Assembly: GCA_951406725.2 (NCBI GenBank)
Contig: OX597819.1
Span: forward strand, 117,118,001-117,182,000
Origin: Octopus vulgaris
Lineage: Eukaryota
Reading direction: 5' to 3'
DNA length: 64,000 nucleotides
The notes beneath the pieces are model-generated. The model did no database searches. It was given only the letters and a program-made list of their open reading frames with translations, and was not told the DNA's origin. The translations under genes were made by a program, and so were the position numbers. The number at the start of each line of letters is the position of its first letter. Position 1 is the first letter of the stretch. Below are positions 15,536-61,510 of this stretch, piece by piece.

Positions 15536-16731
15536 TATATATTCGCATCTATGTATATCTTTTTATATGTGCATGTATATACACACATATAGAAGAACAA
15601 ACCAAGAAAGAAAAGCCTTAATATAGCAAATGATGTTTACAAATTCATGACACATTGTAGAAAGTTGTAAATCAATCTCAACATAATGTCTTTATCATCC
15701 GAAATTTAAAATGCTCTCGTATAACAAACTGAGCAAAATGGTACATTAGATTATTGTACAATCGATTCTCTTCAGTATTTTCCCTCACTGAACTGCCATT
15801 CTTGCACAGCTAAATTAATTTGTTTGTATTTAAGGTGCTCTGATCACATTTTAAGTAATACAATTTCTCATTGATTAGATTGTTCAAAATTAAATAAGCA
15901 ATTTTGCTTTACTACGGGTAAATTGTTATAAGAAAATATTCTCTCAAGTCTAAATGCAAAATGGTGCAGCAAAATAGTGTTTCTTTCGATATGCCCCTAT
16001 TTCTTGAAAGGATCATGCGAAACAATTCCAAGAAATACAAAGAATTCTACTGATGTAAAATGCCATTGCGTAAAGCCAATGATCATTGTGTTAAATTAGC
16101 GGCAATTTCATGAAAGTATCGTTTGAATAAATTTCAATAAATTGCAGCAAAGAAATTATAACAATCTAATACACCTTCCAAGAAGAAGGATTTTCTTCAC
16201 TTGAGAATTGTCTTACCATACAAGCTAACATCCTAATATGATTATTGTAAAAGTAGACACTTTAAATGACGGATTATAGCGGTATAAAAAGTCAGCCAAA
16301 TTTAAATATTAGAACGTTTGATGTGTTGAGCAAACATTGGCAATCATTCTAATTGTAATTTATATTAGTATTATTATAGTTTCATTGCTGCAATTTGATG
16401 AAATTTATCCAAACGGATCTTGAGTGAAACAAAGGTGAATTTAACACTGGTTTTATGTGATGTCGTTATTTTAAATTTATTCTTATTGGGGCGGGGTGAT
16501 TCACTCGCAAAATCCTTTAAGAGAAAAGGAATATATTGAATGATACGTTATTTTACTAGACAGTTGTTGTATTTAAATTTCAGGTAATATTTTCTTGGTA
16601 GTATTTAGTACGACTTATCATATTTTTAACTACAAAGACAGAGCCGTATCAATCAATCAGTCAGTCAATCAATCAATTAATCAATTAATCAATCAATCTA
16701 TCTATCTATCTATCAATATATATATATATGA

Positions 16732-18414: not shown

Positions 18415-18857
18415 TTTGATATAGATATATACGTATATTCATATATATATATATATATAATTAATATCAATAATGTATATGTGTAGTACTTACATAAGCT
18501 TGTGTAGTCGATTGTGTATATAACATTCTATAACGAAGTGTGTGAATAATTTTGCATAAGTGGGGGTGTTTATAAATTTGTGTAGTTGGGGTGTATACAA
18601 TTTTTTTTAGTCAGGAAGTAAACAAGCTCTTATAATATAGTGAATATATAAGTATGTATACTTGAGGGTGTTATACCAGTAATGTTAGAATCACAAAAAT
18701 TACTAAGGAAAGACTAGTATATCACATTGTTGAATGAAATATCATTATTGTAATTTGGCTGCAATTTCTAGATACAGCGCACACCAAGTGGAATATATTT
18801 CCTGTCTCTTCATATTAGGTCCACTGACAAAAAGCGAGAGGTGAACACATTCGATAA

Positions 18858-18980
18858 GTGTTTTGTGGGGGAAGTATAATGGCTATCTTGTGCGTTGACT
18901 AGAATCGTTGGCTGTAATTGTGAAAGTACACGATTCTAGCCAACGCACAACAGATCCATATACTTCCCCCCACAAAATAC
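18858..18980. repeat. 123-bp fold-back (MITE-like)
   Basis: GTGTTTTGTGGGGGAAGTATA...TTGTGCGTTGACTAGAATCGT pairs with ACGATTCTAGCCAACGCACAA...TATACTTCCCCCCACAAAATAC. Confidence 0.85.
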
Positions 18981-19212
18981 CTATTTCTTTACTACCCACA
19001 AGGAGCTAGACACAGAGAGGTGAAACAAGGACAGACAAACGGATTAAGTCGAATACATCAACCCCAGTGCGTAACTGGTACTTAATTTATCGACCCCGAA
19101 AGGATGAAAGGCAAAGTCGACCTCGGCGGAATTTGAACTCAGAACGTAGCGGCAGTCCAAATATTGGTAAGCATTTCGCCCGGAGTGCTAACCACTCTGC
19201 CAGCTCGCAGCC
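18981..19212 (-). mobile_element. SINE family B
   Basis: Reverse complement aligns with 61211-61445. Confidence 0.85.
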
Positions 19213-19449: not shown

Positions 19450-20404
19450 TCATCATCATCGTTTAACGTCCATTCTCCATGCTAGCATGGGTTTGACGGT
19501 TCGACCGGGGATCTGGGAAGGGAAGCCAGAAGGCTGCACCAGGCTCCAGTCTGATCTGGCAGTTTTTCTACAGCTGGATGCCCTTCCTAACGCCAACCAC
19601 TCCGTGAGTTTAGTGGGTGCTTTTTACGTGCCACCTCCACAGGTGCCAGGCGAGGCAGGCAACGGCCACGATCGGATTGGTGCATTTTACGTGCCACCGG
19701 CACGGAAGCCAGTCGAGGCGACACTTGCATCTGCCACGATTCAGATGGTGCTATTTACGTGCCACCGGCACGGAAGCCATTCAAGGCGGCACTGGCATCG
19801 GTCACGATTCGGATAGCGCTTTTTACGTGCCACCGGCTCAGGGATCACAACTGCAGTTTCCATCGATTTTGATGTCGGTGTACTAGACTCAATGGATCTC
19901 CTGAAGCATAGGGTCGAAATGTTGTTTCTTCACTTGCCACCTGCACAGGAGTCAGTCGAGCGGTCCTGGCAACTGCCGGGTGCCAGTCATAGGATTGGTT
20001 CAATTTCGATTCCGATTTCGATTTCACTTGCCCCAACAGGTCTTCGCAAGCAGAGTTTAGTGTCCAATGAAGTGAGGTTGGCATGGGTGCCTGTCGTCGG
20101 ATGAGGTTCGATTTCGACTTCGCTTGCCTCAACAGGTCTTTCTGTGTCCAAGGGAGGAAAGACATGCATAAGTGGGCTGGACTCACTTGTCCTGCCTGGT
20201 CTCGGTCGCTGGTCATTGCCTCAGTGAGGCCTAAAGTTCGAAGGTCGTGCTTCACCACCTCGTCCCATGTTTTCCTGGGTCTACATCTTCCACGCGTTCC
20301 CTCAAATTCTAGGGATTGGCACTTTTTCACACACCTATCTTCATCCATTCTCGCCACATGACCATACCAGCGCAATCGTCTCTCTTGCACACGACAGCTG
20401 ATGC
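19447..20404 (-). mobile_element. 5'-truncated RTE-clade LINE 3' end with repetitive 3' region and (GAT)n tail
   Basis: [44 protein letters not shown]. Four TTTACGTGCCACC subrepeats at 19620-19835. Ends GGACGTTAAACGATGATGATG. Confidence 0.85.
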
Positions 20405-23810: not shown

Positions 23811-23875
<65 letters not shown>

Positions 23876-23876
<1 letters not shown>

Positions 23877-24114
23877 GGTTGTATACTGTCAATCTAACAC
23901 GAACGTGACAGTAGGGGGGTACACTACCGCTGGTTAGCCCTAGGAAGCATCGACGCCTCCTGATGGCTTTGACAGGAGGCGTTGATGCTTCCTAGGGCTA
24001 AACAGCGGTGGTTTACCCCCCTACTGTCACGTTCGTGTTAGATTGACAGTATACAACTACTCTATCGCCCCACCACCGTACAAGTCTCTACGAGAGATTT
24101 AGAAATTTAGTATT

Positions 24115-24117
<3 letters not shown>
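23876..24117 (+). mobile_element. 184-bp near-perfect hairpin (23876-24059) plus one-sided flank
   Basis: Arms GTTGTATACTGTCAATCTAACACGAACGTGACAGTAGGGGGG... and ...CCCCCCTACTGTCACGTTCGTGTTAGATTGACAGTATACAAC; 10-nt loop at 23963-23972. Confidence 0.9.
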
Positions 24118-24209
<92 letters not shown>

Positions 24210-35210: not shown

Positions 35211-36161
35211 GCACTTCATACACAAACATATATTGTTTATTGGTGTGTGTCTGGTGGGTTGATTCTGACTATGTGTTTCCGCGCGCGTGTGTGTGTGTGT
35301 GCGTGTGTGTGCTGAAAACTTCCAGCTCATGAAAATAATCCTCCTTCGAAGTTTTTATTAAAATTTAAGGCATCCGATCAATTCGTCGATGGCAATGCGT
35401 CGTCGTTTAATTTGTCTCCAGTCAATTCGTCGACATCATAAGGAAAATAAAAGGACGAATATCTGAATTTAAGGGGGAAAAAAAGGAATATTTTAAGGTT
35501 AGCTGTATTACAATATGTAACTATTATTTGTATAATATTCATCAACAGACACTAACCAAAGATTGGAAGCAAAATCCTTTGGAGACGTGTTTAGATTTAG
35601 TGCTGGGACTATTCAGTCTCGGTTATTTCGTTGTCAGTTGATTTGTCTCCAGTCAATTCGTCGCTGTCTACAACAGCGCGCTGAAAAACAGTGAATATTA
35701 GTCATCCAAATATTAGGAAACTTATTGATATGATTAAATATGAGAAGTTTGCGAGTACCAAATTGCAAAAGATTATGCAAGAACACAGCCAAAAGAAAAA
35801 ATAAACGAAAAAAAAAAGATAGATATAGGGACCTGCACATAAAGAATGTTATGGCAAAGAATGTTCGAAGCCAAAAAATTATTATTCTAAAAGCAGTTGC
35901 ATTCAATCTTAAATTTTTAGAAAATATAAATATGTAATACAGCTAACCTTAAAATAAACGTTTCTGTTTTTCCTTAAATTCAGATATTCGCTCTTTTATA
36001 TCCCCTCTGATGTCGACGAATTGTTTAATCACGAATTGACTGGAGCCAAATTAAACGAGGACGCATTGCCGTCGACGAATTGACCGGATGCTTTAAATTT
36101 TAATAACAACTTCGAAGGGGGATTATTTTCATGAGCTGGAAGTTTTCAGCACACACACACA

Positions 36162-36197
<36 letters not shown>

Positions 36198-36333
36198 TAC
36201 ACGCACACACACACACCAAACACACACACAGACACATACACACACACAAACACACACACACACAAACACACACACATACTCAGAATCAAGCCACCCCCCA
36301 CGACTAAACAATATATGTTTTTGTATGAAGTGC
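35211..36333. repeat. Large inverted repeat: arms 35211-35512 and 35933-36333, 420-bp spacer
   Basis: Arms align along their length, e.g. GCTGAAAACTTCCAGCTCATGAAAATAATCC / GGATTATTTTCATGAGCTGGAAGTTTTCAGC. Repeated motif CAATTCGTCG. Confidence 0.92.
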
Positions 36334-42750: not shown

Positions 42751-43116
42751 GCCTTACAGCTGTTTCTGTGATATTTTATATATCCCTTCAAAGTTTACAT
42801 AATAATTATTGAAGAAAAGTTATGAAATACAGAGGGAAATGAAGGAATGAAATAAAATTAAGATATGTAACTATATTGTGTTTGCAGTTCTATTATTTAA
42901 GCAGAACGGGGCATATGTAAGTTTCCTGTACTTTATATATATATATACCATTCTGCTTAAATAACGGAACTGCAAATACAATATCCTTACATCTCTCAAT
43001 TCTATTGTCATTCCTTCGCTTCCCTCTGCATTTCATATCTTCTCTACAATAATTAATACTTAAACATTTTCTCGCACCGTCTCTGCTGAAGAGATATATA
43101 ACATATCCCGGAAACA
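42751..43116. mobile_element. Inverted pair of PLE pLTR-like repeats, each with a damaged hammerhead
   Basis: 42761-42912 is the reverse complement of 42946-43116. Motifs: GAUAU..AUAUC..GAAACAGCUGUA (minus) and GUCU-CUGCUGA-AGAGAUAU..AUAUCCCG-GAAACA (plus). Confidence 0.75.
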
Positions 43117-43140: not shown

Positions 43141-43192
<52 letters not shown>

Positions 43193-43272
43193 GCAAAAAC
43201 TGTCCGACGAACGGGAACGTGAAATTCAGAGCAACATGTTTTGTTGAATTTTCTGCTGCTTTAAATAAAGTA
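43193..43272 (+). mobile_element. Short repeat with a degenerate CCGANGA-type hammerhead motif
   Basis: UGU-CCGACGA-ACG-GGAA-CGU-GAAA-UUCAGAG-CA-ACA at 43201-43236. Homologous to 55947-56022 (minus). Confidence 0.55.
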
Positions 43273-43274
43273 TA

Positions 43275-43333
<59 letters not shown>

Positions 43334-45424: not shown

Positions 45425-45754
45425 TTATTTCTAATTCTCTCTAAAGGAGACTATGGTAGCGGTACTGGATATTAATAGTTATCGCCAAGCTAACACGGCA
45501 GTATAGAAAAAGAGGACGAATGTTGCCCTTGATTAGCTGTAAGAGGCCATCGCCTCTAGCTAGCGATGTGACACACAAACCTGTGTCCATTATAACCTTG
45601 AAGCTGCTGACCTCCCCTGTTCAAATATTAAAATAGACACAAGTTTGTGTGTCATATAGCTAGTTAGAGGCGATGGCCTCTTGCAGCTAATCAACGGCAG
45701 TATTCGTCCTCTTTTTCTGGACTGCCATGTTAGATTGGCGATAATTATTAATAT
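45425..45754 (-). mobile_element. 286-bp fold-back (45469-45754) plus one-sided flank
   Basis: ATATTAATAGTTATCGCCAAGCTAACACGGCAGT..AAGAGGCCATCGCCTCTA pairs with TAGAGGCGATGGCCTCTT..ACTGCCATGTTAGATTGGCGATAATTATTAATAT. Confidence 0.88.
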
Positions 45755-55065: not shown

Positions 55066-55945
55066 CTAGCATTAAAGACCCGTCGTTGCCGGGTCATAGT
55101 GCTAGTGCATGTATATATGTGTATATATATGTGTACATATTACATGTACATCTATATATATACATCTACACATAAAATGCAAAATACAAAGTTATATCTT
55201 GATATCGCTAGTGATAACAATACTCAAAATATTTAAGAGACTGGAATTGTTAGCTCTTCTTTTATCTCTACATTGTATACTTTATAGACAATAGTCTTTT
55301 CTTTAATTTAATTTTTTTATTATCCATCTGGACTATTCCATTTCTGAATGCTAATTTTATTTTTAAATTTATTCCCATTCATGTGAAACCATTTATTCAA
55401 GTTCAAATCATTGATGCAATTTTATACCAATTGCTATTTTTACTTTTGTTATGTTACGATTACATTATACTTTAGTTTGATTTTAATTATTACTTACTAC
55501 ATATAATCCAATTGTTATTATTATTTTTTATTGTTAAAGTGAAAGCATCTGACATAAAATAGAGAAATATTTTTGTTTCACTTTTAACACATGATACTGA
55601 AATAGTGGAGAAGATATGATATTGCTATGGGCTCGCTCTAGGCAAGAAGTTGAACATTTTTCTCCATGAAACTACATGGATCCTAATTAAGACATGTGTA
55701 AAATTTGAATGAAATTGGTTCTGTAGTTCTCAAGTTTTAGGGAATCGTAAGGTAGAAGATATGATAGTGCTGTGGGCTCGCCCTAACCAAAATGTTTAAT
55801 TTTGTTTTGCCGATGACACTCCCCGGACCCTATATAAGACATGTGTAAAATTTGAATGAAATTGGTTGTGTAGTTCTCAAGTTTTAGGGAAACACACAGA
55901 CAGACAGACAGACACACATTCTCAGTTTTATATATATATATATAT
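55066..55945 (-). mobile_element. Non-autonomous Helitron-like element
   Basis: Minus-strand 3' end GACCCG-GCAACGA-CGGGTC-TTTAATG-CTAG|T (hairpin plus CTAG). 5' end in (TA)n followed by (TCTG)n. Internal ~140-bp tandem repeat at 55609-55890. Confidence 0.7.
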
Positions 55946-55946
55946 A

Positions 55947-56066
55947 CTTTATTTAAAGCAGCAGAAAATTCAACAAAATCTGTTAATCTGAGTTTCTCGT
56001 TGCCGTGCATTAGACAGTTTTTGTTAGAAACTGATTTTGTTGAATTTTCTGCTGCTTTAAATAAAG
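55947..56066. repeat. Perfect 34-bp inverted repeat around a degenerate hammerhead-like spacer
   Basis: CTTTATTTAAAGCAGCAGAAAATTCAACAAAATC (55947-55980) and GATTTTGTTGAATTTTCTGCTGCTTTAAATAAAG (56033-56066). Confidence 0.9.
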
Positions 56067-56134
56067 CATATTACTCTACCACTGGTATTTGAGTACTCTT
56101 TTTTTCCACCTTGTTTCACATATGTGTTTACTCC

Positions 56135-56172
<38 letters not shown>

Positions 56173-56176
<4 letters not shown>

Positions 56177-56366
56177 CTAAATATCTCAGAAAGATATAAG
56201 TAGTAGTAGGATAGATTAGTTGTATACTCTCAACTTAATGTGACAGTCCGATGAAGGGAATCACATCTCTGCTATGTAGCCCTAGGAAGCAACACCGCGT
56301 CCTAGGGCTAAATAGCAGTTGTGCGTTCCTTCATCGGACTGTCACATTAAGTTGACAGTATACAAC
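56173..56366 (-). mobile_element. 148-bp fold-back (56219-56366) plus one-sided flank, same family as 23876
   Basis: Shares the GTTGTATACT.TCAA / TTGACAGTATACAAC ends and TAGCCCTAGGA / TCCTAGGGCTA inner arms with 23876-24059. Confidence 0.88.
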
Positions 56367-60497: not shown

Positions 60498-60690
60498 CGA
60501 AATTTTGGGGGAGGAAGGAGGCAGTCAATTAGAACGACCCCAACACATAACTGGTACTTAATTTGTCGACCCCGAAAGGATGAAAGGCAAAGTAGACCTC
60601 GGCAGAATTTGAACTCAGAACGTAGAGACAGGTGGAATACTGCTAAGCATTTTGCCCGGCTTGCTAACGTTTCTGCCAGCTCGTCGCCTT
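60498..60690 (-). mobile_element. SINE family B
   Basis: AACTGGTACTTAATTTGTCGACCCCGAAAGGATGAAAGGC..GAATTTGAACTCAGAACG..TGCCAGCTCGTCGCCTT. Confidence 0.85.
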
Positions 60691-61210
60691 ACTCTCCCGC
60701 TCAATACAACAACACCTTTCTACCCGCAAAATGCATCTTTCAGTGCTTGGCATACCTAACACCATTCATCGACTAAATTTACAATTGGCTCGCGCAAATT
60801 CTCTACCAATCTCAACTAACACCCTCTCCATAGACAGTTTTTTTCCCGAAGACAAAATTAAAGATTATGCATATAAATCATTGTAATATTCGTATTAAAT
60901 ATCAAATGCGCGAGGACACGTTTATATTATAATTTGATAGATGCATTTTCCTCCTCATGAATACACACACACATGCGCACACACATACAGACATAACAGA
61001 CGTTCGCGAAGACACGTACACAGTAATGTAGATACAAAATAGAGGCGGTTAAGCACACTATAATTAATCATTCACATTTCTTACATATATAAAACTGTTC
61101 ATGCACAACCAGTAACACGTACGCAGACACAGTGATCAAAGACACTCACCAACGATTAGTTCAGTAGTTATCTGAGTAACGTTAATGAAGAGACAACTAC
61201 TACTGAAAAA

Positions 61211-61510
61211 AGGCGGCGAGTTGGAAGAAACGTTAGCGCGCCGGCAGAATGCTTAGCGGTGTTTCGTCTGACTTTACTTTCTGAGTTCAAATTTCGCCGA
61301 GGTCGACTTTGACTTTCATCCTTTCAGGGCCGATAAATTAAGTACCAGTTACGCACTGGAGTCGATGTAATCGAATTATTCCGTTTGTCTGTCTTGTTTG
61401 TCCTCTCTGTGTTTAGCCCCTTATGGGTAGTAAAGAAATAGGTATTTCGTCTGTCTTCACTTTCTGAGTTCAAATTCCGCCGAGGTCAACTTTGCCTTTT
61501 ATCCTTTTAA
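61211..61510 (+). mobile_element. SINE family B, full length plus a partial tandem copy
   Basis: AGGCGGCGAGTTGGAAGAAACGTTAGC..GAGTTCAAATT; GGTATTTCGTCTG..GAGTTCAAATTCC recurs at 61441-61510. Confidence 0.85.

What the first reader, a model, noticed from the sequence alone, without database searches (positions are those of the whole stretch)
23876..24117. Giant hairpin plus a one-sided hammerhead-like tail: not a plain MITE
Seen: a 184-bp hairpin followed on one side only by CCGUACA-AGUCUC-UACGA-GAGAUU-UA-GAAA-UUUAG-UA (24076-24112). The fold-backs at 45469 and 56219 carry a similar flank on one side (TTTCTAA.T.TCTC...), in the opposite orientation. MITEs normally end at their TIRs. Inference: a small RNA-mobilised element, retrozyme- or pLTR-like, made of a rod-like dsRNA and a decayed CCGANGA-type hammerhead.
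Basis: partly seen in the sequence, partly recalled or inferred. Interest (0 to 1): 0.75.

Follow-up and report, generated by a model that had tools for sequence, protein, structure and literature searches.

The report
Two-armed stub of a hammerhead retrozyme
This hairpin is a short, two-armed copy of a common 363-base repeat that carries a predicted self-cutting RNA motif elsewhere in its unit (not in the tail), and its one-sided tail likely marks how a Penelope-type jumping-gene enzyme copies the repeat's RNA into both cut DNA strands from two fixed start points.

Summary
The hairpin and one-sided tail are real, and this is not a MITE. The tail is not a hammerhead: 0 of 82 family tails hold a core. 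The element is a 5'-truncated, head-to-head insertion of a non-coding 363-nt tandem unit. That unit has a type I hammerhead motif about 75-120 nt upstream of the part present here, so this copy lacks it. The fold-backs at 45469 and 56219 belong to sister families whose motifs covary with it. Arms end at two fixed points about 52-55 nt apart; the stretch between them is the Penelope 'tail'. In 77 loci sampled by position, 39 of 39 two-armed insertions with both ends at these points pair one end of each kind. Target duplications are mostly 9-14 nt, and 49 of 77 sit in (TA)n. An RT-GIY-YIG element in the genome shows the same footprint, but shares no sequence with the unit, so the helper is unproven. 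Cleavage and circular RNA are untested. Verdict: a new member of the animal non-LTR retrozymes with a Penelope insertion signature. The scan found this layout before on other DNA of this genome.

The parts
23814..23873 (.). (TA)n microsatellite, left half of the target site
   Evidence: Sequence. 49 of 77 position-sampled family loci have (TA)n on at least one side. A TSD cannot be read inside the repeat.
23874..23974 (-). Left arm: inverted, 5'-truncated piece of the 363-nt unit (unit positions 207 to about 307-311), ending at the inner fixed 3' end (site B), without tail
   Evidence: Maps to unit 207-311 on the minus strand at 93% (L001). The exact end is 23874 if the last mismatch is respected, 23870 if TA microhomology is counted.
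23973..23974 (.). Head-to-head junction with a 2-nt overlap shared by both arms
   Evidence: Arm sequences. Family-wide, 19 of 50 junctions show 2-5 nt overlap.
23973..24118 (+). Right arm: 5'-truncated piece of the unit (positions about 219-363 plus the first base of the next unit), ending at the outer fixed 3' end (site A)
   Evidence: Maps to unit 220-363 at 95%. The terminal G at 24118 is a templated subfamily variant of unit position 1.
24066..24118 (+). Penelope-type 'tail' (unit 312-363+1) between the two fixed ends: C/A-rich linker, small hairpin (about 24084-24098), TTAGAAA motif, AT-rich end. Not a ribozyme.
24119..24209 (.). (TA)n microsatellite, right half of the target site
   Evidence: Sequence.
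45427..45754 (-). Two-armed stub of sister family 3 (unit about 362 nt; parent seen in L103 has a type I hammerhead motif with the U3-A8 core variant); tail at the 45427 end
56174..56366 (-). Two-armed stub of sister family 2 (unit about 350 nt; parent seen in L076 has a CUGAUGA-core type I hammerhead motif); tail at the 56174 end

Best explanation
The feature is a 245-bp, two-armed, 5'-truncated copy of a non-coding 363-nt tandem repeat that carries a type I hammerhead motif in a part missing from this copy, and it was likely written into a TA microsatellite by a borrowed Penelope-type reverse transcriptase-endonuclease. SHOWN: unit, tandem arrays, hammerhead motif with covariation, two fixed 3' ends, head-to-head layout, variable TSDs, one end of each kind per insertion. 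INFERRED steps: (1) a tandem locus is transcribed into a multimeric RNA, which may be cut by paired hammerheads and circularised; (2) a Penelope RT-GIY-YIG particle binds the RNA near the tail and the conserved hairpin that follows it; (3) it nicks both strands of AT-rich DNA some 10 nt apart; (4) one 3' end primes cDNA at site A (just past unit 363), the other at site B (unit about 305-311), each helped by a short AT microhomology; (5) both cDNAs run back along the same or a sibling template, often through the ribozyme site and round the unit junction, and stop at variable points; (6) their free ends are joined by 2-5 nt microhomology or a short filler. The result is a palindrome with the A-B interval as a one-sided tail. 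This copy itself is most likely a dead stub.
For: Parent unit: 363-nt tandem in L016 and L025; the unit folds with z -7.7; an exact 29-mer of the arm occurs 1319 times, reversed control 0. Hammerhead motif at unit 95-137: on 9 hand-picked sequences from three families, 45 of 45 cells pair for stem II plus the 3-8 core pair, 4 of 5 pairs change on both sides, and slid controls pair 27-51%. Stem I is 5 of 5 paired in the main variant of each family with different letters. Within family 1 a stem-I G-C to A-U double change occurs in 6 of 41 segments. Fixed ends: of 77 position-sampled loci, 47 are head-to-head, 29 single-armed and 1 complex. Of the 47, 39 have both ends at the fixed sites and all 39 are A+B (chance under independent ends about 1e-12). 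TSDs of 9 nt or more in 16 of 28 loci outside (TA)n, 15 of them 9-14 nt. Arms of one insertion differ by 3.3% against 6.3% between loci, lower in 34 of 37 (Wilcoxon p 1e-6). 38 of 77 loci read through the ribozyme site and 22 of 77 cross the unit junction. An RT + GIY-YIG element with a 781-aa ORF also has two 3' ends about 35 nt apart, sits in (TA)n, and pairs A+B in 2 of 2 two-armed copies seen. In vitro, a Penelope protein nicks and extends both strands from two internal start sites that delimit the tail (PMC11167929).
Against: No helper was identified. The three units share no significant similarity with 38 GIY-YIG loci: the only strong hit, in L219, is an unrelated family-3 copy, and the next best is E 0.04; only 150 of 6136 candidates were scored. 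Rfam finds no hammerhead in the unit at E up to 10, and the isolated motif folds no better than shuffles (z -1.1). The covariation set is 9 sequences that I chose from 3 related families, so it counts few independent events. Exceptions to A+B pairing exist outside the positional sample: one A+A locus (L003) and one B+B locus in family 3 (L114); 8 of 47 two-armed loci have an end at neither site. 12 of 28 non-TA loci show no TSD of 9 nt or more. 23 of 50 junctions have filler bases rather than overlap, and the overlaps are BLAST-derived. Rare variants are shared by both arms in only 12 cases against 86 in one arm, and gene conversion could explain arm similarity. 5' ends are not enriched at the ribozyme cut (5 of 128), so nothing here shows that the ribozyme acts in mobilisation.
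Confidence: 0.85

Rival explanations
1. One reading: the 242-nt hairpin plus tail is itself the mobile RNA, a dsRNA rod with a decayed hammerhead in the tail.
For: The tail has a stem-loop followed by GAAA and a downstream UA; it is conserved between families.
Against: 0 of 82 tails have a core on either strand. Arm lengths and junctions differ at nearly every locus. A complete motif lies elsewhere in the parent unit.
Confidence: 0.02
2. The copies are broken-off ends (pLTR fragments) of an autonomous Penelope element whose ORF was not sampled, not a free-standing retrozyme.
For: Same footprint as coding Penelope elements (PMC3846280 and PMC8557442 passages; own data). PMC4209133 notes hammerheads 100-700 bp apart on opposite strands from truncated PLEs.
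Against: Wherever an arm runs past unit position 1 it continues into position 363 of another unit (22 of 77 loci). No shared non-unit continuation was seen by eye in the flanks printed for about 125 family-1 loci; these flanks were not searched for ORFs systematically.
Confidence: 0.08
3. Same family and helper, but the second arm arises by self-priming or template switching of one cDNA, or by later repair, rather than by priming from the second target nick.
For: PMC3846280 favours self-priming for head-to-head PLE junctions. Arms of one insertion are more alike than arms of different loci. 29 of 77 loci have one arm only.
Against: The second arm ends at a fixed internal site abutting target DNA, and either arm can be the longer one (A arm minus tail longer in 11 of 39). 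Both arms often cover sequence the other lacks. A fold-back of one cDNA would copy up to its own 3' end and tend to give A+A or B+B.
Confidence: 0.25
4. A MITE, foldback or Helentron-type DNA transposon with subterminal inverted repeats and a 3' hairpin.
For: Long inverted arms, TA-rich target, small hairpin near one end. The Helentron resemblance is recalled, not from a call.
Against: Variable TSD length, 5'-truncated arms of any length, one-armed and tandem copies, and a hammerhead motif in the unit.
Confidence: 0.02

Closest known systems
Animal non-LTR retrozymes (Cervera and de la Pena 2020, PMC7229834, passages; Li, Clavereau and Pollet 2026, bioRxiv 10.64898/2026.07.22.740005, parts 1 and 3 of 5 plus term search), e.g. 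the 350-390-bp mussel repeats
   Same: Non-coding 350-363-nt unit, type I hammerhead motif with short palindromic loop III, head-to-tail tandems, strongly self-paired RNA, TSDs longer than 4 bp, co-occurrence with Penelope elements.
   Different: Copies here are dispersed and short (up to about 2 units per arm), mostly truncated, and two-armed with two fixed 3' ends. The words 'inverted' and 'TPRT' give no passage on such a layout in the 2026 preprint, and 'inverted' does not occur in PMC7229834. Cleavage and circRNA are untested here. Supplements were not read.
Endonuclease-positive Penelope-like elements: PAc of Anolis (PMC11167929, parts 1-2 of 4), Adineta Penelope (PMC3846280, passages), Naiad/Neptune layouts (PMC8557442, passages)
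   Same: Inverted 5'-truncated copy head-to-head, tail often at one end only, two reverse-transcription start sites, AT-rich or (TA)n target, 8-10-bp-scale TSDs, hammerhead motif in the repeat.
   Different: No ORF; tail is 52-55 nt rather than 30-40 nt; the unit closes on itself; the one-A-one-B pairing is counted here (39 of 39), whereas the papers say only 'often at one end'.
U3-A8 minimal hammerhead variant of Schistosoma Cercyon PLEs (PMC4209133, part 1 of 4)
   Same: Family 3 (45469 fold-back) and the coding RT-GIY-YIG element both carry a TTGATAA core.
   Different: Here it sits in a non-coding tandem unit with 5-bp stem I and 4-bp stem II.
Twin priming of L1 inversions (Ostertag and Kazazian 2001; title seen in a reference list; content recalled, paper not held)
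   Same: Two target nicks prime cDNA on one element and give an inverted 5' part joined by microhomology.
   Different: As recalled, the second L1 priming site is variable and the arms barely overlap; here it is fixed about 52-55 nt from the first and the arms overlap extensively.

Membership tests
Animal non-LTR retrozyme | Type I hammerhead motif in each repeat unit | tested here: met
   Unit 95-137 in family 1 and in both sister families, with compensatory changes. Absent from this truncated copy; Rfam models did not detect it.
Animal non-LTR retrozyme | Head-to-tail tandem units of 150-450 bp | tested here: met
   363-nt period; 22 of 77 loci cross the unit junction.
Animal non-LTR retrozyme | No protein coding, no LTR/PBS/PPT | tested here: inconclusive
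   A 363-nt unit cannot hold an RT, and arms run unit into unit. Flanks were checked by eye only; PBS/PPT not searched.
Animal non-LTR retrozyme | Self-cleavage of the RNA | not testable with these tools
   Needs in vitro transcription of monomer and dimer.
Animal non-LTR retrozyme | Accumulation as circular RNA | not testable with these tools
   Only assembled contigs were available; they cannot show ends, strand or circles.
Penelope-like element footprint | Two fixed 3' ends delimiting a tail | tested here: met
   Ends at unit 300-312 or 354-363 in 28 of 29 one-armed loci and at both ends of 39 of 47 two-armed loci.
Penelope-like element footprint | Inverted 5'-truncated copy, head-to-head | tested here: met
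   47 of 77 loci.
Penelope-like element footprint | Variable-length TSD at AT-rich targets | tested here: met
   16 of 28 non-TA loci with 9 nt or more; 49 of 77 loci in (TA)n. Lengths are upper bounds because they include end microhomology.
Autonomous Penelope-like element | RT plus GIY-YIG ORF between the repeats | tested here: not met
   None in this copy or beside it; no link between the unit and 38 GIY-YIG loci.
   0 of 82 tails with a core on either strand.
MITE / foldback DNA transposon | Constant terminal inverted repeats and fixed-length TSD | tested here: not met
   Arms of 29-566 nt, asymmetric ends, TSDs of 9-14 nt, tandem and one-armed copies.

The most novel reading that the evidence does not exclude
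Penelope-type integration is an obligately asymmetric twin priming: one particle feeds two different fixed RNA start sites to the two nicked target strands, one each, and animal retrozymes are parasites that keep just this two-site docking module plus a hammerhead, copied from an uncleaved multimer or circle. Giant one-tailed hairpins like this are then the general fossil of that reaction.
Probability: 0.45. Interest if true: 0.7.

Novelty: new member of a known kind. Interest (0 to 1): 0.48.

Why it matters
How animal retrozymes get into the genome, and why Penelope elements carry a one-sided tail and an inverted copy, are both open in the papers read. These small non-coding copies give a clean count (39 of 39 A+B) and exact start sites that can be tested in the existing in vitro Penelope assay. 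In practice, thousands of such stubs would be mis-annotated as MITEs or miRNA-like hairpins. The single copy asked about is an ordinary dead stub.

Tried and rejected
RNA: no RNA holder is listed on record; all 24 runs listed were guessed-RNA or unlabelled, and the four laid were contigs. Contigs of three guessed-RNA runs cover all 28 bins of the unit and leave the single-copy part of the neighbouring flank uncovered where a DNA-like run covers it. Contigs cannot show strand, ends, level or circles, so this says nothing on circRNA, siRNA or editing. A-to-I footprint in the template: rare A>G 27 versus T>C 28 on the sense strand, no excess (p 0.79). Pile-up of 5' ends at the ribozyme cut: 5 of 128, none. 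Rfam: only generic miRNA-like hairpin hits below gathering score on the finding, none on the unit. Helper search: GIY-YIG scan gave mostly one Neptune-like family (clade name inferred from a CxxC motif, not tested by a tree) with no sequence link to the units; a weak 37-nt match in L204 (E 0.04) was rejected as chance. A second domain search did not run because the family was not in the library. The repeat finder on the whole window was swamped by microsatellites. One alignment used wrong coordinates for a family-3 motif and was redone; MAFFT misplaced the loop III gap, so stem I was counted by anchored register in a script. Literature: searches found no paper on octopus or cephalopod retrozymes, nor on twin priming in Penelope elements, within the library held; supplements were not read and may show such layouts.

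Full report
1. Observation. The window is G000:C6:117118001-117182000 of a 2.8-Gb animal assembly in 227 contigs; an earlier scan note calls it an octopus, which I did not test. Bases 23877-24058 fold into a near-perfect hairpin (z -24.9), about 184 nt long with a stem of about 87 bp. A tail follows on the right only, and both flanks are (TA)n. The fold-backs at 45427-45754 and 56174-56366 carry a homologous tail on the other strand.

2. The tail is not a hammerhead. In 82 family tails from a position-ordered sample, the supposed decayed core reads CCGTACA in 69, and none has a C(C/T)GANGA or TTGANAA core on either strand. The tail folds weakly (z -1.8). Rfam finds only generic hairpin hits below threshold.

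3. The parent. A genome search gave 2329 candidates, 40 scored. Longer copies (L016, L025, L007) reveal a 363-nt unit in head-to-tail tandem. I number it u1-u363 from L016:1755. The finding is u207-311 inverted, joined to u220-363 direct. The unit has a type I hammerhead motif at u95-137: 5-bp stem I, CCGAUGA core, 4-bp stem II, GAAA, a 6-nt palindromic loop III and a GUC cut site after u132. This copy begins about 75 nt downstream of the cut site and lacks the motif, as do 39 of 77 sampled loci. The unit RNA is strongly self-paired (z -7.7). An exact 29-mer of the arm occurs 1319 times, control 0.

4. Sister families. The 56219 fold-back belongs to a unit of about 350 nt with a CUGAUGA core. 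The 45469 fold-back belongs to a unit of about 362 nt with a UUGAUAA core, the U3-A8 variant described in PMC4209133. On 9 chosen sequences, stem II and the 3-8 pair are paired in 45 of 45 cells, with 4 of 5 pairs changed on both sides; stem I is fully paired with different letters in each family's main variant. These are few independent events. Rfam did not detect the motif, and alone it folds no better than shuffles. PMC4209133 says such short-helix-III motifs may need a dimer.

5. Insertion anatomy. I took the first 100 of the 1319 exact matches, in contig order, which fall in 77 loci on C1 and C2. 47 are head-to-head, 29 one-armed, 1 complex. Arm 3' ends cluster at u300-312 (site B) or u354-363 (site A). 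Of the 47, 39 have both ends at these sites and all 39 pair A with B; 8 have an end elsewhere. Under independent ends this has a chance of about 1e-12. The sampling 29-mer lies in both kinds of arm, though B+B copies outside TA runs could be missed. Outside this sample I saw one A+A (L003) and one B+B (L114, family 3). The base after u363 agrees between internal junctions and the terminus within most loci, so site A lies one to three bases into the next unit. 49 of 77 loci touch (TA)n; of the other 28, 16 have a direct repeat of 9 nt or more, 15 of them 9-14 nt. Of 50 inversion junctions, 19 overlap by 2-5 nt, 6 by 0-1, 2 by more than 10 at palindromes, and 23 have filler; random joins give 2 nt or more in 17%. 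The two arms of one insertion differ by 3.3% against 6.3% between loci (34 of 37 lower), but share few rare variants (12 against 86). 38 of 77 loci read through the ribozyme site, 22 cross the unit junction, and 5' ends do not pile up at the cut (5 of 128). The template was therefore uncleaved multimer or circle; the data do not tell which.

6. Helper. The genome holds a young RT + GIY-YIG element with a 781-aa ORF. It has two 3' ends about 35 nt apart, sits in (TA)n, and shows A+B in both two-armed copies seen. It shares no significant sequence with the units, so it is only a candidate; 150 of 6136 candidates were scored.

7. Mechanism. Shown: unit, motif, two fixed ends, A+B pairing, variable TSDs. 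Inferred: a Penelope protein binds unit RNA, nicks both target strands, primes one at A and one at B, and the two cDNAs are joined at their free ends. PMC11167929 shows in vitro that such a protein nicks and extends both strands from two internal sites that delimit the tail, and that ribozyme cleavage is not needed. It reports no difference in start site between strands; the genomic pairing here implies coordination within one event. Self-priming, favoured in PMC3846280, remains a rival for the second arm. Confidence: 0.85 for the identity, about 0.6 for twin priming, about 0.4 for a circular template.

8. Comparison and novelty. It meets the sequence criteria of animal non-LTR retrozymes (PMC7229834; bioRxiv 2026.07.22.740005); cleavage and circRNA are untested. 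It works like a Penelope element but is not an autonomous one. [quoted passage not shown] I found no paper in the held library that reports this footprint for retrozymes or counts the pairing; supplements were not read. Earlier notes of this scan reached the same reading on other DNA of this genome (consulted after my reading was formed); they are not independent support.

9. Verdict. Real feature, wrong location for the ribozyme, right class of element. New member of a known kind; interest 0.48, carried by the testable A+B rule rather than by this copy.

Noticed in passing
window 55942-56140 and 43190-43275: A fourth one-tailed fold-back (arms 55942-56071, about 65-nt tail, then TA). Its arm end matches 43240-43270, which is preceded by a hammerhead-like core at 43204; probably the 3' end of another Penelope-type family.
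   Followed up: partly
window 42790-43068, 18854-18984, 35240-36219, 60525-61507, 16120-16415: Further fold-backs or inverted pairs of other repeats; not classified.
   Followed up: no
L231-L238 (e.g. L238:81-4772): Young, abundant RT-GIY-YIG element with a 781-aa ORF, an overlapping upstream 479-aa ORF with no Pfam match, a U3-A8 hammerhead-like motif in its 3' region and a tail of about 35 nt.
   Followed up: partly
L182:1120-1164: A family-1 copy sits in the TA run directly behind the tail of that coding element, so the two share targets.
   Followed up: no
L016:1755-1790, L076:1295-1330, L103 junction: The first 35 nt after the tail form a hairpin conserved in all three families; a candidate protein-binding site 3' of the start sites.
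   Followed up: partly
window 56230-56345: The family-2 arm contains the reverse complement of the family-1 hammerhead core region, which could block or pair with it; unexplained.
   Followed up: no
window 19845-20390 (-): Fragment that reads like the C-terminus of an RTE-type LINE ORF (recalled resemblance).
   Followed up: no
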